Shown here in pieces: positions 3,779 through 25,085 of a DNA stretch of 26,512 nucleotides (positions are counted from its first letter, which is position 1; the number at the start of each line of letters is the position of its first letter). Made by a program: the position numbers and the translations under genes. This DNA comes from a virus. Its lineage: Duplodnaviria; Heunggongvirae; Uroviricota; Caudoviricetes. The stretch lies in the IMG/VR virus record IMGVR_UViG_2698536335_000001, positions 1 through 26,512 of that record; one strand, 5' to 3'. The notes beneath the pieces are model-generated. The model had not been told where the DNA came from and searched no databases. It saw only the letters and a list, made by a program, of their open reading frames with translations.

Positions 3779-3845
3779 ATTACCTGAAAAACCATATATG
3801 GATAGGTAGACCATGAATACAAACAGATATTACCTTTCAGGTAAT
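3779..3845. promoter_or_regulatory. pair of inverted 11-mers ATTACCTGAAA (3779-3789) and TTTCAGGTAAT (3835-3845); the second is part of the 17-bp palindrome ATTACCTTTCAGGTAAT (3829-3845)
   Basis: Read directly in the intergenic region upstream of the tailspike gene; the same 17-mer recurs at 20444-20460. Confidence 0.35.
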
Positions 3846-3881: not shown

Positions 3882-3901
3882 TACTGTATAAATATACAGT
3901 T
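3882..3901 (+). promoter_or_regulatory. LexA (SOS) box TACTGTATAAATATACAGTT
   Basis: CTGT (3884-3887), 8-nt AT-rich spacer, ACAG (3896-3899); 18 of 20 positions match the E. coli consensus TACTGTATATATATACAGTA; 20 bp upstream of the ATG at 3921. Confidence 0.7.
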
Positions 3902-3920
3902 ATTGCATGGAGAAGATAAG

Positions 3921-4178
3921 ATGCAGCAGTATCACTATCCACTGGAAGACGGATTTACCGAAAGGATTCACACGCCGGGAGGCGTCAGGTCACTGGTGGA
4001 GGGATCGCACTTGATGAAATTACTCCGGGATCTCGATAAGGATGGATTTAATGTCGATGGCCCACTTGCCGAACTGACTGCACTGATTAACTACGTCACC
4101 AGCTCACAGATGTCTATGCAGGATCTGCAAACACATCTCGACTATTGTGCCAAACAATTACGAAAACAAATCACATAA
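3921..4178 (+). CDS. SOS-regulated hypothetical protein, 85 aa, acidic (MQQYHYPLEDGFTERIHTPGG...)
   Basis: ATG at 3921 with GGAGA RBS (3909-3913); the track start at 3903 is a TTG extension; LexA box immediately upstream; convergent with the virion operon. Confidence 0.6.
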   Translation: MQQYHYPLEDGFTERIHTPGGVRSLVEGSHLMKLLRDLDKDGFNVDGPLAELTALINYVTSSQMSMQDLQTHLDYCAKQLRKQIT

Positions 4179-4200: not shown

Positions 4201-4220
4201 TGTGACATGTCACGCTCACG

Positions 4221-4370: not shown

Positions 4371-6845
4371 TTATTGCGGAGTGACATCCTGTGGTCGCCA
4401 CCAGTATGTCTGGTTAAACTCTTTCTTCGAACGTTGCTCCATTTTATGCAAATAACCTGGTGAAAAATACTCCTGCATCTGGTTAAAGATCATGTGATCG
4501 AGAGCCGCCTTTAAGTACCAGAGATTCGCACCTGGCATCAGACCTTTCCCCAGCTTAACCAGATCACCACCAGTCTGCTCATTCTTCCCTTCCACAGCAT
4601 TTAACGGTATACCCTGAGCAATCTTCACTACGTCATCAACCAGACCAGCTACCGGGCCAAGCATCGACGCCAGCGCGCCGCTTCCGTACCTAGTGTGATC
4701 TGACAATAAAAAGTCACCGTAAAGGCCAAGACCACCACCTTTCAGTAGAGCACCAAGCCAAAATTTAGCAGCATCTTCTCCTGTCATCTCGCGAGGATTA
4801 CGACCAGACGCAAGGTCGTTAAGTTGCTGCGACAAAGCGCCAAGAATGGTCGTACTGGCAATAAACGTCGCAATATATGCCGCACGCCCACCAGCAGACG
4901 GCATACCCATAGCGCGTGACCAGTGACGCATAACAACCGAGATAGGGAACGATTTAAACAGGAAAACACTTCTCGTTAATTCACCTTTCCATGTTCCACG
5001 CTGAATACCAGAACCGGTTATCAGTTGCTCACGTGCTCCCGGTGTAATAACAGCCATATCAATTTCTTCAGTTACGGCACCGAGCAGTTTACGCATTGCC
5101 TCAAATTTCACGCGTTCAGGTTCACCAAGATGTTTAACTGCTGAATCAGGGATACGCATAATGCTTTCCGGTGTCAGCATCGTATTATTACCGTTCCCCC
5201 AGTCCTCCTGTTGCGCCAGCTTCCATACGCTCCAGTCTGTGTCAGTAATCCCTTTGCTTTTCAGGATACGAAAATCAGAGTCATCGAGGCTACGAAGGTC
5301 TGGTGTCCGTGACACTACTTCTCCCAGGCTTCCCATCATGGTTACGCCATAGGCGCGCTTGTGCGCATCTGACCATGCTGTAAGCCCACTGGCACGCATT
5401 ACCGCCGTTGCCGCCCAACGAGACACTGACGGCCCCATATTATCCATCGCCCATCGGTTAACGCTGCCAAGTAGAGATTCCATCGCCAGACCAGCGCGGC
5501 GCGCCCGCGCAAGTTCTGTACGGTTCGTTGGGTCCATAGCTTCAAGCTGGTTGCGGAATAACTGGTTCATTGGAAGGTTGGTAACCTTCGCAGACAGATA
5601 CATGGTTCCAAGATCAGAGAACGATGACAGCAACGCGGATCCGAGTCTGCTGGCAACCAGCCAGTTGCGGATATTGTCAGACCATCGCGCGATGTGCGGA
5701 TTCGCTACAGGCTGTGTCTTTCCGGAAATAAAGTTGTACAGATTCTCTGTGTTGTTCGCCAGCCGCTCGACTTTACCGGTTTTACTCGGGTTAGCTGTTG
5801 CCGTTTCTGCCTTCACCTGATCAAGAAGAGAGCGGAAAACATGATCGGGGTTTGGGCCATATGTTTCCACCAGTGCAATATCTTTACTGATACCTTCCAG
5901 GTGACCGACCATGATTTCCCATAGAGAGCGATCGCCATAAAGTTGCTGATATTGCAGATAGGAATCTGCATCTTTGAAATGTATCTGTCGTGATGCATTA
6001 CCACGGTTAGCACGTGCGCCGGAAATTCGCATTCCGGTATCAGTAAGCTTATTCAGCCCACCAGTAGCGATCGTGTTATAAGCCTCTCCAAGAAATGCAG
6101 ACAACTCAGCATCGTTCATCAGTTGTCCATCGGCTCGGGTATAATATTTGCGATCCAGCTTACCTATAACATCGCTAACCCACTTATCCTTTGATACCGC
6201 CCCAACCTTTTCCATAGAATGATGTTGAGGGATCCCCCAGTTTTCGAGATAGCCAATGTCCCCACCAGCATCATTAAACCGGCGGCGCAGTAGCTCTGTC
6301 ACTTCTCTCCACGCCTTAGCACCTTTTCTTGCTTTAGCATTGCCCGTATTTTGCCCTCGCATTTCATATACCAGGTCACGCACGCCAGCTTCATCTTCAA
6401 ACAGGCCAAAAAAGCGAGGATCAACTGCTTCAAATGCCTCCTGCAATTGACTCAATGCATAATCACGAGTGGCTTTTGTTCTGGACTCAACAGAGAGGAA
6501 ATTCGATTTACCGTCTGCATTAAAAGCAATAGTACGGTTAAGAGCGCCAAGTTTCCCATCAGCCCCTTGATAGCTATTGATAAATTTATCCAATCTCTGA
6601 CGTGCGGCTATAGTGAGGGCCACACGACGTTTCTTTAATGCCGCTTCTCGCTGTAATTCTTCAGATGCCAATTGTGCTGCACGATATAGCCGCTCTGATT
6701 CGGAAAGTTGTCTCCACGACATCGGGTCATCACGAGCAATGGAGCGCATATTTCGATAAATGCGGTCTTCAATGTTCTGTATTTCTCGCGCCGTTAACGT
6801 GCGCTGCGCCGCCTGCTGGACCGCTTGTATACATTCCTGTCTCAT
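4371..6845 (-). CDS. internal virion / ejection protein (T7 gp16-position), 824 aa
   Basis: Large protein in the position between tail tubular genes and tail fibre, as in T7-like gene order; RBS present. Confidence 0.75.
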   Translation of the reverse strand: MRQECIQAVQQAAQRTLTAREIQNIEDRIYRNMRSIARDDPMSWRQLSESERLYRAAQLASEELQREAALKKRRVALTIAARQRLDKFINSYQGADGKLGALNRTIAFNADGKSNFLSVESRTKATRDYALSQLQEAFEAVDPRFFGLFEDEAGVRDLVYEMRGQNTGNAKARKGAKAWREVTELLRRRFNDAGGDIGYLENWGIPQHHSMEKVGAVSKDKWVSDVIGKLDRKYYTRADGQLMNDAELSAFLGEAYNTIATGGLNKLTDTGMRISGARANRGNASRQIHFKDADSYLQYQQLYGDRSLWEIMVGHLEGISKDIALVETYGPNPDHVFRSLLDQVKAETATANPSKTGKVERLANNTENLYNFISGKTQPVANPHIARWSDNIRNWLVASRLGSALLSSFSDLGTMYLSAKVTNLPMNQLFRNQLEAMDPTNRTELARARRAGLAMESLLGSVNRWAMDNMGPSVSRWAATAVMRASGLTAWSDAHKRAYGVTMMGSLGEVVSRTPDLRSLDDSDFRILKSKGITDTDWSVWKLAQQEDWGNGNNTMLTPESIMRIPDSAVKHLGEPERVKFEAMRKLLGAVTEEIDMAVITPGAREQLITGSGIQRGTWKGELTRSVFLFKSFPISVVMRHWSRAMGMPSAGGRAAYIATFIASTTILGALSQQLNDLASGRNPREMTGEDAAKFWLGALLKGGGLGLYGDFLLSDHTRYGSGALASMLGPVAGLVDDVVKIAQGIPLNAVEGKNEQTGGDLVKLGKGLMPGANLWYLKAALDHMIFNQMQEYFSPGYLHKMEQRSKKEFNQTYWWRPQDVTPQ

Positions 6846-6850
6846 TTAAT

Positions 6851-8653
6851 TTAACCTCTCAAGAAACACGCCACAGCGACATCAAACAGGCTGGAATCCT
6901 GTATTGCCTGCTCACTTTCCCTGTTCGCTTCATCCAGTACTTCACGCGCGCTGCGCGATTGTGGATTACCATCATCATCCAGCACGGTGATTATCATGTC
7001 AGGTGATTCAAGTAGCGAGTCTTCAGCTATGCGCAGATCAATATCTCCTGCCTGATCCGCCATCATTTTTTGTTCTGCCTGTTGCAATATTTTATCAGGC
7101 TCAAAAGGAGCTACTTCGTCTGGCGTCCTGACCTCTGCTGTTTTATAGAATGAAACAGCCTGAGCATTAAGTTCACTTTCTGCCTGCTGTCTCCGAGCCA
7201 GTTCTGCTCGAGCTTCAAAAAACTGACCGCCAGGCTCATGCGGTGCCAACGCGTTACGAGAAAATTCCAGGCGTTCTTGTGCCTGCCGGATTCGTTGGTC
7301 AATATCGCGAAGTCTGGCCTGTTTATCTGATCGAGCACGAGACAAAGCTTTACCGCTACCGGTTGGCTCTTCTGCAAGAATTTGTGCACGCTGTTCAGTG
7401 AGATTTTCAATAATTCGTTGGCTATTAGCGATTTCAGACTGGTAAACCTGTCTATCTCCACGCGGCAAAAGCTGCGCGGCCTGTTCTTCAAGCAACCGAT
7501 TTTCTATAGCGCGCGCCGTTACTCCATCATCTACAGATGACAGAGCCTCATTAACTGCCTGAGACAGCAGACTCTTGCGCCTAGGAATTTCACTGAAAGA
7601 TGCAGACTCAACAATGCTGGCAACGTCTACAGGTCTCCCCTGGCTAACATCAGACATAGCTTTTCGCAGAGCCTGAATGTGAGAATTGCGCGAAAGCACG
7701 TTGATCGGCACGCCGGGCGCAATATCAATTTCAGCATGATGAGCGGCATTCGCCGCCAGTGCAGCATCGATATCAACTGGTGAAAAATTTGGTGCGTTTG
7801 TAGACTCGCCGCGAGAGTTAATAAATCTGCCGACACCACCAAACGCCACCCCAAGAACAGCATCAATAGCAATTGCCTGTCGATCCAACACATCATACTG
7901 GTTAGCCATTTCGCTATAGCCACCATCACGAAGCGTTTTTGCAGTAAGCCCACGCTGTGCCATACCGAACGCAATATTTGTACCTGCGGCATAGGCAATA
8001 TCTGGCGTTGCACGTACTGCTGTTGCTGCGGCGCGTCGCACTGAACTCTCACCAGTCCGCGCAAGCTGAGCCGCCACACCTTCCGCCAGCGCACCACCAG
8101 CACGTAACCCGAGGCTCATAGGGATCAGTGTTCCGGCACCAGCAGTAATGCCCTGCACTAATCCCGCTTCCTGCGCCGTCCTGAAATCAACACCCTGTGC
8201 TGTCAGCCGTTCAAACTCAGAAAAACCCTGTAGCGAAGTTACCGCCGCTGCACCTCCGACAGGACCACCGAGCGTTGTACCGACAACAGCCTGCCCGCCC
8301 ATATCGAACAACCCATAAAGAACCTGCCCGGCGGTTCCGGTTGTCGCGGCATCAGGCGTCAGCCGCTTAACCTGCTGCTCTGCTAGTTTTCTCTGCTCGG
8401 CAATGTATGAAACTGAAGTATCATTGAGCGAGGTGTTTTCGTTAATAAACTGAGCAATCGGGGATACGATTTTATCCATCCCTGCCCATAGCAACTGATC
8501 TGGCTTTGCCACCAGCCCGGAGTACAAACCAGACAATGCCGCTCCTACAGCATTGTCGAAAAAACCAACATCGCTGTTAAAGCCCGCTGGATTTGATGCT
8601 GCTTCGTCAAGTTGCTGATTCTGGTTTACTGGATTAAGGCCAAAGTAACTCAT
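6851..8653 (-). CDS. internal virion protein, Gly/Ala-rich N-terminal half, coiled-coil-like C-terminal half, 600 aa
   Basis: Composition and position in the ejection-protein block; start overlaps the stop of the upstream gene. Confidence 0.75.
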   Translation of the reverse strand: MSYFGLNPVNQNQQLDEAASNPAGFNSDVGFFDNAVGAALSGLYSGLVAKPDQLLWAGMDKIVSPIAQFINENTSLNDTSVSYIAEQRKLAEQQVKRLTPDAATTGTAGQVLYGLFDMGGQAVVGTTLGGPVGGAAAVTSLQGFSEFERLTAQGVDFRTAQEAGLVQGITAGAGTLIPMSLGLRAGGALAEGVAAQLARTGESSVRRAAATAVRATPDIAYAAGTNIAFGMAQRGLTAKTLRDGGYSEMANQYDVLDRQAIAIDAVLGVAFGGVGRFINSRGESTNAPNFSPVDIDAALAANAAHHAEIDIAPGVPINVLSRNSHIQALRKAMSDVSQGRPVDVASIVESASFSEIPRRKSLLSQAVNEALSSVDDGVTARAIENRLLEEQAAQLLPRGDRQVYQSEIANSQRIIENLTEQRAQILAEEPTGSGKALSRARSDKQARLRDIDQRIRQAQERLEFSRNALAPHEPGGQFFEARAELARRQQAESELNAQAVSFYKTAEVRTPDEVAPFEPDKILQQAEQKMMADQAGDIDLRIAEDSLLESPDMIITVLDDDGNPQSRSAREVLDEANRESEQAIQDSSLFDVAVACFLRG

Positions 8654-18161: not shown

Positions 18162-18458
18162 TCACTCCTGTTCACTGGCCTCTTTGGCCATCTTCAAATA
18201 CTGTTCAGGGCAATGCGCCATAACGCGCTGAAACAGTTCCAGCGCCAGATTGCGTTGCCCCTCATTAAATGCCATTGCCATAGCGTCCATCGGTGAGATA
18301 GCGGAAAACACACGGCCTTTCTCCAGCACCGACCAGACAACGCGACGCCCCTGTTCACTGCTCATGACAAAGCGAATGTCATCAATTTCACGCTGTGCCA
18401 TGTCACGTTGCTTACGGGCGTTTTCTTCTTTCAGTTGATCGTCTTCGTAATCTGTCAT
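18162..18458 (-). CDS. hypothetical head-morphogenesis protein, 98 aa
   Basis: Start overlaps the portal stop by 4 nt; charged helical protein. Confidence 0.55.
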   Translation of the reverse strand: MTDYEDDQLKEENARKQRDMAQREIDDIRFVMSSEQGRRVVWSVLEKGRVFSAISPMDAMAMAFNEGQRNLALELFQRVMAHCPEQYLKMAKEASEQE

Positions 18459-20423: not shown

Positions 20424-20461
20424 TTGACATTTAACGCACAAATTATTACCTTTCAGGTAAC
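20424..20461 (+). promoter_or_regulatory. candidate promoter (TTGACA at 20424-20429, 17-bp spacer, TACCTT) overlapped by the 17-bp motif at 20444-20460
   Basis: Perfect -35 hexamer read directly; the -10 is weak; the 17-mer TATTACCTTTCAGGTAA is identical to the copy at 3828-3844. Confidence 0.3.
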
Positions 20462-21434: not shown

Positions 21435-21454
21435 CACCGTGACATATCACAAAC

Positions 21455-21524: not shown

Positions 21525-23000
21525 TTAAGCATAGGGATCGTAATCTGTGATGGCCTTGCCTTGCTGGTTCTGCTGCCCGGGAATTCGCAGACGCTTAGAC
21601 ACAGGGAACGCAAACGTCAGCAGTAGCGCATCGCCTTTACCCGGAGAACGCCCAAGCCGCTCTTTGATATCTTCCTTCGGTTCGATAACGATTTTACCGT
21701 CCACTCGAACTTTGTACTCTGCCGCCGACAGGTCGTCCGCTGTTTCCTGGTCATCCAGCATGCCGCCCAGCCTCAGCCATGTCTTACATGAGTTGAACAT
21801 CTCCCCACGCTTGTTAAGCATCTGCGGGTCAGTGGACGCACCGCCGAACGGAACAAGTTGCCATGTACGTCCCCAGCCATCACCGATTGACTTCAAACCG
21901 GTTCCGTAACCGAAGTCGATGAACACCGCGTCAGCCTGGTACTGGTCTTCAAAGTCAGCGATACGCTTCGCCATAATCAGATCGTCGGTGGTCTTGTTGC
22001 CGGTCCACAGCACCTTACTGTGCAGCCCCTGCCGCAGGTATATCACCGCGTCATCAACACCGGAGTATGCAGGGTCAACGCCGATTATCACCGGAGCATG
22101 TGCCACCTGCGCAGCAGTTACCACCCGTTTCATTGCCTCGTCAGTAAGACCGGTAGGGATAAACTGCAATTCAGATGCATCAGGGAATATGCCGCGCACA
22201 CGGATTTTAACGAAGTCGCTGTCTTCCCCGTAGTCATCAACCCATTTCTGCAACTGCTGTTTGTTAGTGCCTTCCACCGTCCGGCTGTCAATCTGCGCAG
22301 TTTTCCAGCGGTGTTTATACTTGCGGAAACATTCACGGAATCGCCCGGTATTACGCGTAGGGTTTCCGAACGCCACCCAAATAATCTCAGTGTCTTCGTC
22401 CGTAAGCGCACCCTCGGCAACTTCCCACACCAGATCCGCAATGTTCGACGCTTCATCAAACACCACGATGATGCGTTTGCGCTCGTTGTGTAGTCCGGCG
22501 AATGCCTCAGTGTTGTGCTCAGACCAGGGGATTGCGTCAGCCCGCCACCGCTTGTCGTGCCCAGGATCATTGCTGTACATCGCGGTAGCGGTACAGGTAA
22601 ACCAGTCTTTCGTGATAGCAAGGTTCGACCACTTGATAATTTCCGGCCAAGTCTTCGTTCGTAGCTGGTTGTCGGTGTTGGCGGTCACCACGACCTTACA
22701 ATCCTCGCAAGTGGACATGCCCCAGTTGATCAGCATTGAGATGAATGCGGATTTACCAATACCGTGACCAGAAGCACGTGCCAGCATAAGCGGCTGATAT
22801 CGCGTCTCTGGATTCTGCAGGTGATCACGTATCTCTCGGAACGCATCGGCCTGCCACTGACGTGGACCGGTGGCATGTGCCAGTTCAGTACCCTCTTCCC
22901 CCCACGGGAACGCATAGAGGGCATAGCCAAGCGGATCGTGAGTGAACCCTGCAATATCCTCGATTAACTGCTCTTCAGGAGATAACACTGTATCTGTCAC
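21525..23000 (-). CDS. terminase large subunit, 491 aa
   Basis: Walker A-like ASGHGIGKS and Walker B-like IIVVFDEAS in the N-terminal ATPase region, acidic nuclease-like C-terminal half; start overlaps the small-subunit stop. Confidence 0.85.
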   Translation of the reverse strand: MTDTVLSPEEQLIEDIAGFTHDPLGYALYAFPWGEEGTELAHATGPRQWQADAFREIRDHLQNPETRYQPLMLARASGHGIGKSAFISMLINWGMSTCEDCKVVVTANTDNQLRTKTWPEIIKWSNLAITKDWFTCTATAMYSNDPGHDKRWRADAIPWSEHNTEAFAGLHNERKRIIVVFDEASNIADLVWEVAEGALTDEDTEIIWVAFGNPTRNTGRFRECFRKYKHRWKTAQIDSRTVEGTNKQQLQKWVDDYGEDSDFVKIRVRGIFPDASELQFIPTGLTDEAMKRVVTAAQVAHAPVIIGVDPAYSGVDDAVIYLRQGLHSKVLWTGNKTTDDLIMAKRIADFEDQYQADAVFIDFGYGTGLKSIGDGWGRTWQLVPFGGASTDPQMLNKRGEMFNSCKTWLRLGGMLDDQETADDLSAAEYKVRVDGKIVIEPKEDIKERLGRSPGKGDALLLTFAFPVSKRLRIPGQQNQQGKAITDYDPYA

Positions 23001-23593
23001 TGATTACCATCCTGACGTTCTTTGAGTCGCTTCCTGGCTGCTGCTATGCGATCAGCAATTGTCACATTCACATTAACATCCAGGCGTTCTTTGAATGCGT
23101 TGACGTCGACGTGCTTACCAATCAGTTCGAGGTTCTTCACCTTGTCAGGCCATTTAATTTTTTTGAGGATTGTCTCTATCGAATCCTCGTTCATGTTCAT
23201 GATGGTCGATGACAGATCAAAGCCGCTAAGCGTAGTGCGCCAGATTTTCGGCCACTCGCGGATTGGCTTAAGGCTCCCATCGTCGTTGAGGATGTCGATC
23301 ACGTCCATCTGGTCGATCTCCACCAGGCGCATGAGAACGTAATCAGCACTGACGCGCATTCGTTTGTTGCGCTCCTCCATCAACTCGGCAATCCGTTTTT
23401 GAATGCGTTCATCGCGCATCATGACACTGGCTTTAACTGCCGCTGTATTTGGGGAGAATCCTGCATTAATCGCTGCCTGAGTCTGGTTTTCAGGCGTTTT
23501 GATGTATGACTGGCAATAAGCCTCCTGCATTGCTGTTAGTGGCTTAAATTGCGTTGATTTGCGTTTATAGGTTTTAGGTTCAGCAGGCATCAT
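22997..23593 (-). CDS. terminase small subunit, ~198 aa
   Basis: Immediately upstream of and overlapping the large subunit; helix-rich basic protein; ATG at 23593 (track start 23671 is a TTG extension running through a terminator and tandem repeat). Confidence 0.65.
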   Translation of the reverse strand: MMPAEPKTYKRKSTQFKPLTAMQEAYCQSYIKTPENQTQAAINAGFSPNTAAVKASVMMRDERIQKRIAELMEERNKRMRVSADYVLMRLVEIDQMDVIDILNDDGSLKPIREWPKIWRTTLSGFDLSSTIMNMNEDSIETILKKIKWPDKVKNLELIGKHVDVNAFKERLDVNVNVTIADRIAAARKRLKERQDGNQ

Positions 23594-23596
23594 AAC

Positions 23597-23632
23597 CACC
23601 GTGGTAATAGTTACCGTTGTGGTAATAGTACC
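23597..23632. repeat. tandem direct repeat, two copies of ~18 bp, core GTGGTAATAGT at 23601-23611 and 23619-23629
   Basis: Read directly: accgtggtaatagttaccgttgtggtaatagtacc, between the terminator and the terminase small-subunit start. Confidence 0.5.
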
Positions 23633-23662
23633 ATGCAAAATAAAGCCGCCATAGTTGGCGGC
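23631..23662 (-). terminator. rho-independent terminator upstream of the terminase genes
   Basis: gccgcca-tagt-tggcggc (23645-23662) followed on the minus strand by TTTATTTTG; 6 nt after the stop of gene 23668-23901. Confidence 0.6.
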
Positions 23663-23667
23663 AGTAT

Positions 23668-23901
23668 TCAAAGTCCATCAAATTCATCGTAAAAACTCTC
23701 GTCAAGATACCCTTCCCATTTACCGCGAATGAAAATTACATCCTCGCCGCAAGGGTGCTGACTGTCGATAACTATATCCCTCCTGGCGCAACCATACTTA
23801 TGCATGAGAAATTTAACCTCTTTCGGAAAATTTGCTGAATTATCTCTCATATCTTCAAGGTCGTAGCGTATTTTTGGCATAACACCTTCGTGACATGTCA
23901 C
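23668..23901 (-). CDS. hypothetical protein, 70-77 aa
   Basis: GTG at 23901 overlaps the upstream TGA (GTGA) or ATG at 23880; no recognisable motif. Confidence 0.5.
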   Translation of the reverse strand: MTCHEGVMPKIRYDLEDMRDNSANFPKEVKFLMHKYGCARRDIVIDSQHPCGEDVIFIRGKWEGYLDESFYDEFDGL

Positions 23902-24245
23902 ACTATTAATTTCGTTTCATGCCAGCCTTTAGTCACCCAGCATTGCGAGTCACCATTACACGGGCATGAATTAACGGGAACTCTCTCGCCGCACTTACCG
24001 CAAAGTTTTCTGCTGATCGATTTTATACGCCCGCGCACACGTGCATCATCCTGGCGGATCAGCAGCGCGATGTACTCGGCCATTTCATAGGGATCGCGAC
24101 CAGGGCGCCGGGCGGCGCAGTTCCGCGCCAGCATTTCCTGCTCCTGCTTATCCAGCATCAGTTCAATTTTGCGCTCACCGGCGGCGGACTGCCGAGCGCG
24201 CTGCGCGGCTTTGCGTTCTGCGGGGGATTTAGCCACGAATCGCAC
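23898..24245 (-). CDS. hypothetical protein with C-terminal Cys-rich zinc-ribbon-like motif (CGKCGERVPVNSCPCNGDSQC); start uncertain
   Basis: Basic N-terminal half, five Cys in 21 residues near the C-terminus; track start is GTG. Confidence 0.5.
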   Translation of the reverse strand: MRFVAKSPAERKAAQRARQSAAGERKIELMLDKQEQEMLARNCAARRPGRDPYEMAEYIALLIRQDDARVRGRIKSISRKLCGKCGERVPVNSCPCNGDSQCWVTKGWHETKLIV

Positions 24246-24351
24246 TCCACGCCAGATTGATTAATGACTCCCAGGCAATATAAACCCGGATACCAGCAGC
24301 CAGGCCGAAACCAATCACCATGGCATAAAGCAGAGCGTTGCACTTGTTCAT
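24229..24351 (-). CDS. small hydrophobic protein, 40 aa (MNKCNALLYAMVIGFGLAAGIRVYIAWESLINLAWSAIRG); absent from the ORF track
   Basis: ATG shares a base with the upstream TGA (TGATG) and is preceded by AGGAGG; one hydrophobic helix; overlaps the uncertain start of 23898-24245. Confidence 0.3.
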   Translation of the reverse strand: MNKCNALLYAMVIGFGLAAGIRVYIAWESLINLAWSAIRG

Positions 24352-25085
24352 CACTTCACCTCCTGCGGCGGTTCCGGTAGCGGCATCCAGTGAGTTGCTT
24401 GCTCAATACCATTACCCGGCTTAATCGTTGCATCTCCGCGCCGAAAGGTGCTTCCGGTATAGCGTGCGGAGCATATTAGCGGTTCAACCAGAGAGCTATC
24501 GAAATTCACCGAAATAAGCACGTTCTGGCCCTTTTCAGGCATTCGATCACTACAGCTTATCCAACTATCCGGAGTTCCCGGAGAGTTGCCATTTACATCG
24601 AAGTTTGGCTCTGCGTCCTGAACCAAGAGGATGTAACCATTCTTGGCTGTATCAAGTTCTAACGCTTCGGTGACGGTGCCGAAATAGCGATTACCTAAAT
24701 CAGCATCACAAGTGCTTATATCAATGGAAACTTCCATGCCTTCGATTAATTCTGGCAAGTTGTAAGTTTGGCTTACAGGTTGGCTACCCTGAAGCATGGC
24801 GGCGCGGTGACACCAGATAATCCAGCCAAGCGCCATATCCCATGCCATGTATTCTCTATCGCCATTTTTTGCCCTACGGCGATCTACAGATTCCCCGAAA
24901 CGCTTCTCCATAAATAATTCATAGGCTGCTCGTTCATCCGATACTGCTGCCAGTGATGCCAGTGCAATTTTTAATGCGGTAAGCATGTTGTTTTGATCTT
25001 CATCGAGTCCGAACGGTATTTCATCCCGTGCTGACTCAATGCTGGTAATCGTGTTCTGTAACCATTCTTTGGTAAGAGTATTCAT
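24351..25085 (-). CDS. nin-region-type protein with DUF551-like C-terminus (…HWMPLPEPPQEVK), 244 aa
   Basis: C-terminal W-x-P-L-P-E-P-P motif recalled from DUF551 proteins of lambdoid phages; N-terminal ~15 aa shared with gene 25281-25748. Confidence 0.65.
   Translation of the reverse strand: MNTLTKEWLQNTITSIESARDEIPFGLDEDQNNMLTALKIALASLAAVSDERAAYELFMEKRFGESVDRRRAKNGDREYMAWDMALGWIIWCHRAAMLQGSQPVSQTYNLPELIEGMEVSIDISTCDADLGNRYFGTVTEALELDTAKNGYILLVQDAEPNFDVNGNSPGTPDSWISCSDRMPEKGQNVLISVNFDSSLVEPLICSARYTGSTFRRGDATIKPGNGIEQATHWMPLPEPPQEVK

What the first reader, a model, noticed from the sequence alone, without database searches (positions are those of the whole stretch)
23898..24245. Cys-rich small protein just upstream of the late operon
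A basic N-terminal half followed by CGKCGERVPVNSCPCNGDSQC is the kind of zinc-ribbon found in small phage late-transcription activators (P2 Ogr and Mu C are the known examples, though their spacing differs). Its location, two genes before the terminator and repeats that precede the terminase genes, makes it a candidate regulator of the repeats at 23597-23632. This is inference from position and composition only.
Basis: inference. Interest (0 to 1): 0.35.

Follow-up and report, generated by a model that had tools for sequence, protein, structure and literature searches.

The report
Phage zinc regulator with own palindrome
The Cys-rich ORF is a real, widespread but unstudied small phage DNA-binding protein (ribbon-helix-helix-like fold plus a four-cysteine cluster) whose likely target is a 12-bp palindrome overlapping its own stop codon, not the repeats in front of the terminase genes.

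Summary
The ORF is real. Its true start is probably the GTG at 24236, giving 112 aa, as in almost all homologues. It is the epsilon15 gp49 / phiV10 p55 / N15 gp46 family (PHROG 536). It has no Pfam, NCBIfam or PDB sequence match, and I found no functional study.

A confident AlphaFold2 model (pLDDT 90.8) shows a conserved basic helix, a ribbon-helix-helix-like core and a Cys4 cluster (C-x2-C-x7-10-C-x7-9-C). It is unrelated to P2 Ogr (hhalign 0.2%). In other phages it coexists with Ogr, Q or Mor.

New here: a palindrome, GTGAC-NN-GTCAC, travels with the family. In 7 lineages at only 35-57% protein identity it starts exactly one base before the TGA stop. It is the most frequent of all 1024 such palindromes in 153 kb (13 copies against a mean of 0.19). 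In this window, exact or near copies sit beside intrinsic terminators at operon ends.

In phiV10 it precedes every transcription unit and flanks the repressor gene, so it is most likely the repressor operator.

Best reading: a sequence-specific DNA-binding regulator acting at operon boundaries. The mechanism is not established.

The parts
23898..24236 (-). Coding sequence of the 112-aa Cys-rich regulator, stop codon included.
   Evidence: ORF list. 108 of the 120 best homologues are 112 aa. PHROG 536, E 2e-53. AF2 model pLDDT 90.8: helix 5-18, extended segment about 23-28, helices 30-42 and 52-74, Cys cluster 79-99, helix 100-107.
23890..23901 (.). S1: perfect 12-bp palindrome GTGACATGTCAC. 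The gene's TGA stop codon forms bases 2-4 of it. Proposed cognate binding site.
   Evidence: Exact match. Same register in 7 lineages at 35-57% protein identity. 97% conserved against 66% and 58% for the following non-coding DNA in 24 distinct epsilon15-like segments.
21439..21450 (.). S2: GTGATATGTCAC (1 mismatch). It lies 4 nt after the hairpin terminator that follows the large terminase gene, between convergent genes.
   Evidence: The copy is exact at the equivalent place in phiV10 and in about 50 of 80 IMG/VR loci.
4202..4213 (.). S3: exact GTGACATGTCAC. It lies 1 nt before the terminator hairpin GGCCGCtttcGCGGCC that ends the structural operon, between convergent genes.
   Evidence: Exact at the equivalent place in phiV10 (19493).
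18395..18406 (.). S4: one-mismatch copy (GTGACATGGCAC on the minus strand) inside the ORF after the portal gene. Function uncertain; may be chance.
   Evidence: The same variant is present in phiV10 at 5306.
23645..23662 (-). Intrinsic terminator GCCGCCAactaTGGCGGC + TTTATTTT that closes the early-right operon.
   Evidence: Conserved in TL-2011b and EC.W1-9, where it lies only 43 nt after S1.
23593..23626 (.). Probably not this protein's target.
   Evidence: In phiV10, 14 of 14 B sites with at most 1 mismatch are intergenic, at the start of every transcription unit and on both sides of repressor gene p40.
23668..23901 (-). Variable small ORF (77 aa as listed, about 70 aa from the ATG at 23880; PHROG 1541) inserted between S1 and the terminator.
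   Evidence: Reduced to a remnant in TL-2011b, EC.W1-9 and phiV10. Replaced by a LexA-box plus umuD-like gene in Klebsiella phages.
24229..24354 (-). 41-aa hydrophobic ORF (PHROG 5525). Its stop overlaps the regulator's start, suggesting translational coupling.

Best explanation
The gene encodes a small sequence-specific DNA-binding regulator of a widespread, uncharacterised phage family (epsilon15 gp49 / N15 gp46).

Architecture:
- A highly conserved basic N-terminal helix (R8, R13 and R15 nearly invariant).
- A ribbon-helix-helix-like core, which would pair into a dimer.
- A C-terminal four-cysteine, presumably zinc-binding, module (C79, C82, C91 or C93, C99).

Its cognate site is most likely the palindrome GTGAC-NN-GTCAC. 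The first copy is built into the gene's own stop codon. In this epsilon15-like prophage, further copies sit next to the intrinsic terminators that end the terS-terL unit and the structural operon.

I infer that, once made at the end of the early-right operon, the protein binds these operon-end sites and changes what RNA polymerase does at the adjacent terminators. It could act as a roadblock that enforces termination and insulates convergent units. Alternatively, polymerase could be modified there to read through into the late genes.

Shown: the gene, the family, the fold class, the conserved cysteines, and the statistical and positional association of the palindrome with the gene.

Inferred: that this protein binds the palindrome, metal binding, the oligomeric state, and the effect on transcription.
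For: Fold:
- AF2 pLDDT 90.8.
- A few members weakly hit the RHH_5, RHH_1 and RepB-RCR_reg Pfam models.

Conserved features: R8 64/66, R13 65/66, C79 and C82 66/66, C99 65/66.

Site association:
- GTGACNNGTCAC occurs 13 times in 152.6 kb from 10 independent loci.
- It ranks first of all 1024 5-N2-5 palindromes (mean 0.19 each) and is found almost only with spacing 2 (one copy each at spacings 6 and 7).
- It starts exactly 1 nt before the TGA stop in seven lineages. These are the window, N15/phiKO2, a Yersinia P2-like phage, and the phages encoding P0218, P0200 and P0124. It lies 2 nt after the stop in L091.
- In Vibrio phages, copies lie about 140-228 nt after the gene and 23-31 nt before terS.
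- It is a conservation island within epsilon15-like phages.

Location in the window: S2 and S3 abut terminators. S1 is 43 nt from the terminator in relatives that lack the inserted ORF.

Position of the gene: last conserved early gene before the late or packaging genes in several phage types.
Against: - No experiment links the protein to the palindrome. The association is genomic only.
- The residues that would face DNA on the RHH strand (23, 25, 27) vary while the site does not. Recognition must therefore come from elsewhere, perhaps the basic helix, or from another protein.
- Four lineages have the protein but no exact site: P0137, P0162, P0235 and a Mu-like phage.
- Distances from S1 to the downstream genes vary, and no conserved promoter follows the site. 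Activation from S1 is therefore unlikely, and the proposed effect at terminators rests on adjacency alone.
- In N15 and phiKO2, S1 is followed directly by the next gene's ribosome-binding site, with no terminator.
Confidence: 0.5

Rival explanations
1. The protein is the phage's late-gene activator and works by binding the repeats at 23597-23632 in front of terS, in the manner of P2 Ogr.
For: It sits at the early/late junction. No Q, Ogr or Mor homologue is annotated in phiV10. The repeats are real, conserved and palindromic (ATTACC-N5-GGTAA). PHROGs and RefSeq call the protein a transcriptional regulator.
Against: - The same element occurs in phiV10 before early, lysis, integrase and tail-fibre units and on both sides of the repressor gene. 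This is the pattern expected of a repressor operator.
- The two copies here overlap the terS leader and ribosome-binding site, downstream of a possible extended -10 (TGgTACTAT). That is a repressing rather than an activating position (read; inference).
- There is no relationship to Ogr.
- Family members coexist with Ogr, Q or Mor elsewhere.
- The repeats do not travel with the family outside epsilon15-like phages, whereas GTGACNNGTCAC does.
Confidence: 0.12
2. The C-terminal helix plus cysteine cluster is a diverged DksA/TraR-type zinc finger. The protein would then act mainly by binding RNA polymerase, as F-plasmid TraR and lambda Orf73 do, with or without DNA tethering.
For: A family profile searched against PDB sequences gives YbiI and TraR as its three best hits (E 0.033-0.041) over residues 49-112. 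hhalign against TraR gives 62% probability, P 7e-5. It aligns CxxCG..(L/I)P and the following Cys. TraR-like genes are common in the same early regions of temperate phages (own knowledge).
Against: - The cysteine spacing differs: C-x2-C-x7-10-C-x7-9-C here against C-x2-C-x17-C-x2-C in DksA/TraR (own knowledge of the family).
- No member hits Pfam zf-dskA_traR at E<0.1.
- The aligned helix is the second helix of the RHH core and lacks TraR's acidic tip.
Confidence: 0.12
3. The palindrome is read by some other factor, or serves packaging or recombination (for example a module-boundary or cos/pac accessory site), and is only genetically linked to this gene. The protein would have an unrelated role.
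For: In Vibrio HNH-terS phages one copy lies 23-31 nt before terS, where cos sites usually are. In epsilon15-like phages the copies flank terS-terL, and variable inserted genes lie right next to S1, S2 and S3. The strand residues that would read DNA are not conserved.
Against: This gene is the only one consistently next to the site across P2-like, N15-like, epsilon15-like and other phages from Escherichia, Klebsiella, Yersinia and Vibrio. The site's fixed register with the stop codon argues for co-inheritance under selection. N15's cos is about 7 kb from its site.
Confidence: 0.15

Closest known systems
Epsilon15 gp49 / phiV10 p55 / TL-2011b gp20 / N15 gp46 / phiKO2 gp45 (PHROG 536)
   Same: True homologues: 81-87% identity for the epsilon15-like phages and 37-38% for N15 and phiKO2. 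Same length, same cysteines, and the same palindrome at the stop codon.
   Different: Nothing of substance. None of them has a tested function that I could find. The label 'transcriptional regulator' is an annotation only.
Ribbon-helix-helix repressors (CopG, Arc, Mnt, omega, ParD/TacA antitoxins)
   Same: Strand-helix-helix core by structure comparison. Small size and a basic N-terminal arm. The site has 5-bp half-sites 7 bp apart, which recalls the heptad operators of the omega repressor (own knowledge; a lead, not a test).
   Different: It has a long, conserved N-terminal basic helix, a 9-residue loop between the two helices, and a C-terminal Cys4 module that the classical members lack. The residues on the recognition strand are not conserved, although the site is. 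Sequence models of RHH families barely detect it.
Lambda Q antiterminator
   Same: It is the last gene of the early-right operon, and a DNA site for the protein lies immediately after its own gene, followed by a terminator and then the late genes. This is positional analogy only.
   Different: There is no sequence or fold similarity (no PF06323 hit). Members coexist with Q in N15, phiKO2 and two metagenomic phages. No conserved promoter surrounds the site. Several sites lie after, not before, terminators.
P2 Ogr / P4 Delta / 186 B late activators
   Same: A small, basic, cysteine-containing phage protein. In a Yersinia P2-like phage the family member sits right after gene A, where 186 carries B (186 gene order is from my own knowledge).
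   Different: The cysteine pattern and fold differ, with hhalign probability 0.2%. That Yersinia phage also has a genuine Ogr (PF04606, E 4e-21).
F-plasmid TraR / DksA family
   Same: Weak profile similarity over a helix plus CxxCG..LP..C.

Membership tests
PHROG 536 (epsilon15 gp49-like 'transcriptional regulator') | Full-length match to the family profile | tested here: met
   E 2.1e-53, residues 5-114 against profile positions 3-114 of 115.
Ogr/Delta zinc finger (PF04606) | Match to the Ogr_Delta profile; C-x2-C-x22-C-x4-C finger | tested here: not met
   No Pfam hit for the protein or for 66 relatives. hhalign of the family against a verified Ogr gives 0.2% probability. The Cys spacing here is C-x2-C-x8-C-x-C-x5-C.
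Mor/C family (PF08765) | Match to the Mor profile; C-terminal helix-turn-helix | tested here: not met
   No hit. The model shows no helix-turn-helix. A Mu-like phage carries both Mor and a family member.
Ribbon-helix-helix superfamily | N-terminal strand with alternating hydrophobic residues followed by two helices, matching solved RHH proteins | tested here: met
Ribbon-helix-helix superfamily | Homodimer whose paired strands insert into the DNA major groove | not testable with these tools
   Only single-chain prediction is available. The strand region is modelled as unpaired coil.
Ribbon-helix-helix superfamily | Match to curated RHH sequence models | tested here: inconclusive
   Only 2 of 66 members hit RHH_5, 2 hit RepB-RCR_reg and 1 hits RHH_1, all at E 0.01-0.07. 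The window protein hits none.
DksA/TraR C4 zinc finger (PF01258) | C-x2-C-x17-C-x2-C finger and a match to the profile | tested here: not met
   The spacing differs and there is no Pfam hit. Only weak profile similarity to TraR and YbiI: E 0.03-0.04 and hhalign 62%.
Lambda Q-type antiterminators (PF06323 and relatives) | Match to the Q profiles | tested here: not met
   No hit. Q-like genes are present alongside family members.
Zinc-binding protein (any class) | Four conserved metal ligands and bound zinc | tested here: inconclusive
   Four conserved Cys positions are present. Metal content cannot be tested computationally.

The most novel reading that the evidence does not exclude
A previously unrecognised class of phage regulators combines a ribbon-helix-helix-like DNA-binding half with a zinc module. 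It is loaded at a 12-bp palindrome embedded in its own stop codon and at copies beside intrinsic terminators. There it would decide whether RNA polymerase stops or reads on. In epsilon15-like phages, where phiV10's annotation lists no Q, Ogr or Mor, this would make it the early-to-late switch. In P2-, N15- and Vibrio-type phages it would be an operon-boundary insulator.
Probability: 0.2. Interest if true: 0.75.

Novelty: new variant of a known kind. Interest (0 to 1): 0.5.

Why it matters
How epsilon15-like phages (genus Uetakevirus, which includes E. coli O157 and Salmonella phages used for typing and detection) time their late genes is unknown, as far as I could find. This protein family is present in at least 150 sequenced phages of very different types. 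It has no Pfam model and no study that I could find.

Pairing it with a precise candidate DNA site makes the question directly testable with a gel shift and a few point mutations. The site is GTGAC-NN-GTCAC, at the gene's own stop codon and next to terminators.

The analysis also separates two regulatory 'alphabets' in these genomes. One element marks the starts of transcription units and the other marks their ends. This should improve the annotation of such prophages.

Tried and rejected
1. Ogr/Delta, Mor/C and Q membership: no profile hits, and hhalign against Ogr gives 0.2%.

2. Known RNA element or defence gene in 23300-24500: none in Rfam or PADLOC.

3. Structure searches beyond RHH. Foldseek on PDB gave only TTHA0139. 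BFVD gave only a fragment of the same family. The afdb50 library was unavailable.

4. Idea that lysine or glutamine at position 9 of the basic helix predicts presence of the palindrome: rejected. N15 and phiKO2 have Q9 and still have the site.

5. Idea that S1 lies in the spacer of a promoter, Q-like. TTAATA-17-TAGATT can be read in TL-2011b-type phages. However, the -10 is not kept in this window, in Klebsiella phages or in distant lineages, and it looks like a decayed ribosome-binding site of the inserted ORF (read).

6. RNA hairpin role for the palindrome: a 5-bp stem with a 2-nt loop cannot form.

7. CRP site: the half-site spacing is 4, not 6.

8. The search for related loci with diverse alignments failed because no stretch was conserved enough.

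9. P0239, a 1670-aa 'hit', is a HEAT-repeat false positive.

10. Literature searches for the palindrome, epsilon15 gp49, N15 gene 46 and RHH-zinc late regulators found nothing on function.

Full report
**Observation.** The minus-strand ORF 23898..24245 exists and reads MRFVAKSPAERKAAQRARQ...CGKCGERVPVNSCPCNGDSQCWVTKGWHETKLIV.
- The probable start is the second GTG, at 24236, giving 112 aa. 108 of the 120 closest homologues are 112 aa.
- A GGAG lies 8 nt upstream, and this GTG overlaps the stop of the preceding 41-aa hydrophobic ORF.
- All genes in this part of the window are on the minus strand. The order is methyltransferase, DUF551-type proteins, the 41-aa ORF, this gene, a 77-aa ORF, an intrinsic terminator (23645-23662), two short repeats, then terS and terL.

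**What the window is.** The region is nearly identical to epsilon15-like (Uetakevirus-type) phages and prophages of E. coli, Salmonella and Klebsiella.
- In phiV10 the homologue is p55, the last gene of the early-right operon. It lies directly upstream of terS once the genome is circular or integrated.
- In TL-2011b it is gp20.
- The 77-aa ORF is a variable insert. It is reduced to a remnant in TL-2011b, EC.W1-9 and phiV10. In Klebsiella relatives it is replaced by a LexA-box plus umuD-like gene.

**The protein family.** It matches PHROG 536 ('transcriptional regulator') at E 2e-53. It has no Pfam, NCBIfam, PADLOC or PDB sequence hit.
- There are 725 clusters at 90% identity and 147 representatives at 50%.
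- tblastn finds it in 150 phage records. These include N15 (gene 46), phiKO2, Yersinia P2-like phages and many Vibrio phages.
- Across 66 diverse members the conserved features are R8, R13 and R15 in an N-terminal basic helix, then E54 and L59, P87, and the cysteines. C79 and C82 are invariant, C99 is present in 65 of 66, and a further Cys lies 7-10 residues after the CxxC.
- The family pattern is C-x2-C-x7-10-C-x7-9-C. This is a four-cysteine cluster rather than a classical two-knuckle zinc ribbon.

**Structure.** An AlphaFold2 model built on that alignment is confident, with pLDDT 90.8.
- It shows helix 5-18, an extended segment around 23-28, helices 30-42 and 52-74, the Cys cluster, and a short helix 100-107.
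- Foldseek gives only TTHA0139.
- The fold assignment is therefore reasonable but not strong.
- A family profile against PDB sequences gives YbiI and TraR as best hits (E 0.03-0.04). hhalign against TraR gives 62%.

**Not Ogr, not Mu C.** hhalign of the family against a verified Ogr (PF04606, E 4e-21) gives 0.2%.
- Family members also coexist with established late regulators:
  - Ogr in Yersinia phage vB_YenM_201.16, where the member sits right after gene A;
  - Q in N15, phiKO2 and two metagenomic phages;
  - Mor in a Mu-like phage.
- So in those phages it is not the late activator. phiV10's annotation lists no Q, Ogr or Mor.

The sequence at 23593-23626 is better described as two copies of an inverted repeat, ATTACC-N5-GGTAA.
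- The same element lies about 100 nt upstream of the tailspike gene (3829-3845) and upstream of the portal cluster (20445-20461).
- In the complete phiV10 genome, all 14 sites with at most one mismatch are intergenic, although intergenic DNA is only 6.5% of the genome.
- They precede terS, the portal cluster, the tail fibre, the lysis genes, the integrase and two delayed-early units. Two lie on each side of the helix-turn-helix repressor gene p40.
- That is the layout of a repressor operator set, not of late-specific activator sites.
- Here the two copies cover the terS leader and ribosome-binding site, just downstream of a possible extended -10 (TGgTACTAT, 23633-23625). This is my reading and is an inference.

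**A second element that does go with the protein.** The 12-bp perfect palindrome GTGACATGTCAC overlaps the gene's stop codon (23890-23901; G-TGA-C...).
- An exact second copy lies at 4202-4213, 1 nt before the terminator that ends the structural operon.
- A one-mismatch copy lies at 21439-21450, 4 nt after the terminator that follows terL.
- Another one-mismatch copy lies inside an ORF at 18395-18406.
- phiV10 has exact copies at the two equivalent terminator positions.
- About 50 of 80 related IMG/VR loci have an exact second copy after terL.
- Among 24 distinct epsilon15-like sequences, the site is 97% conserved. The non-coding DNA that follows is 66% and 58% conserved.

**The palindrome follows the family across distant phages.**
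- GTGAC-NN-GTCAC starts exactly one base before the TGA stop in N15 and phiKO2 (37-38% identity), the Yersinia P2-like phage, and the phages encoding P0218, P0200 and P0124.
- It lies 2 nt after the stop, and again 100 nt later, in L091.
- In Vibrio phages it lies 140-228 nt after the gene and again 23-31 nt before terS.
- In 152.6 kb from ten independent loci it occurs 13 times, in 7 loci. It is the most frequent of all 1024 palindromes of this form (mean 0.19 each) and is found almost only with a 2-bp spacer.
- Four lineages have the protein without an exact site.

**Interpretation.** No other gene is consistently adjacent to the site, so the simplest reading is that this protein recognises it.
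- The 5-bp half-sites are 7 bp apart. That suits RHH-type binding, and omega repressor heptads come to mind, although this is recalled from memory and not tested.
- The strand residues that would contact DNA vary while the site is constant. The invariant basic helix may therefore do the reading.
- In epsilon15-like genomes the two elements divide the labour. TTACC-N5-GGTAA marks the starts of transcription units, and GTGAC-NN-GTCAC marks their ends, beside terminators.
- I therefore favour a regulator acting at operon boundaries, as roadblock, termination helper or read-through switch. The direction of the effect is unknown.
- Activation of a promoter from S1 is unlikely. The distance from S1 to downstream genes varies with insertions, and no promoter is conserved after the site.

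**Novelty and limits.** I found no publication on the function of this family or on the palindrome.
- The fold class is familiar. What appears to be undescribed is the combination with a Cys4 module and a cognate site built into the stop codon.
- Everything about binding, metal content and effect on transcription is inference and needs the experiments listed.

Noticed in passing
window 3829-3845, 20445-20461, 23593-23626; phiV10 locus L086 (14 sites): A 15-17-bp inverted repeat, (A)TTACC-N5-GGTAA(T), sits in front of every transcription unit of epsilon15-like phages and on both sides of the repressor gene. This suggests that one repressor controls all promoters directly, as in phage P1.
   Followed up: partly
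window 3884-3899: A LexA-box-like sequence (CTGT-N8-ACAG: CTGTATATTTATACAG on the minus strand) lies immediately upstream of the plus-strand ORF 3903-4178. This is the position of the Bro-N/antirepressor region in phiV10, and it suggests an SOS-controlled antirepressor.
   Followed up: no
window 22997-23671: The mechanically listed terS ORF (TTG start at 23671, 224 aa) runs through the terminator and the operator repeats. The real start is almost certainly one of the two ATGs at 23593/23590, as annotated in TL-2011b. phiV10's terS annotation has the same over-extension.
   Followed up: partly
window 23668-23901: The 77-aa ORF (PHROG 1541, no known function) is an indel hotspot. It is a short remnant in TL-2011b, EC.W1-9 and phiV10. 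In Klebsiella phages a LexA-box plus umuD-like gene occupies the same slot.
   Followed up: partly
L098 2214-2225 (N15) and L101 2447-2458 (phiKO2): A second exact GTGACTGGTCAC lies inside the repA replication gene of both N15 and phiKO2. It is conserved between the two phages. Its meaning is unknown.
   Followed up: no
L102 about 7460-7480 (Yersinia phage vB_YenM_201.16): A LexA box (CTGTATATAAACACAG) precedes the small gene after the family member. This resembles the SOS-controlled tum gene of phage 186.
   Followed up: no
window 24229-24354: A 41-aa hydrophobic ORF (PHROG 5525) is translationally coupled to the regulator. In one metagenomic cluster the two are called as a single 146-aa fusion protein (P0001).
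   Followed up: no
window 18395-18406: A one-mismatch copy of the palindrome (GTGACATGGCAC on the minus strand) lies about 55 nt into the gene after the portal gene. The identical variant is present in phiV10 (5306). It could be a weak internal site or coincidence.
   Followed up: no
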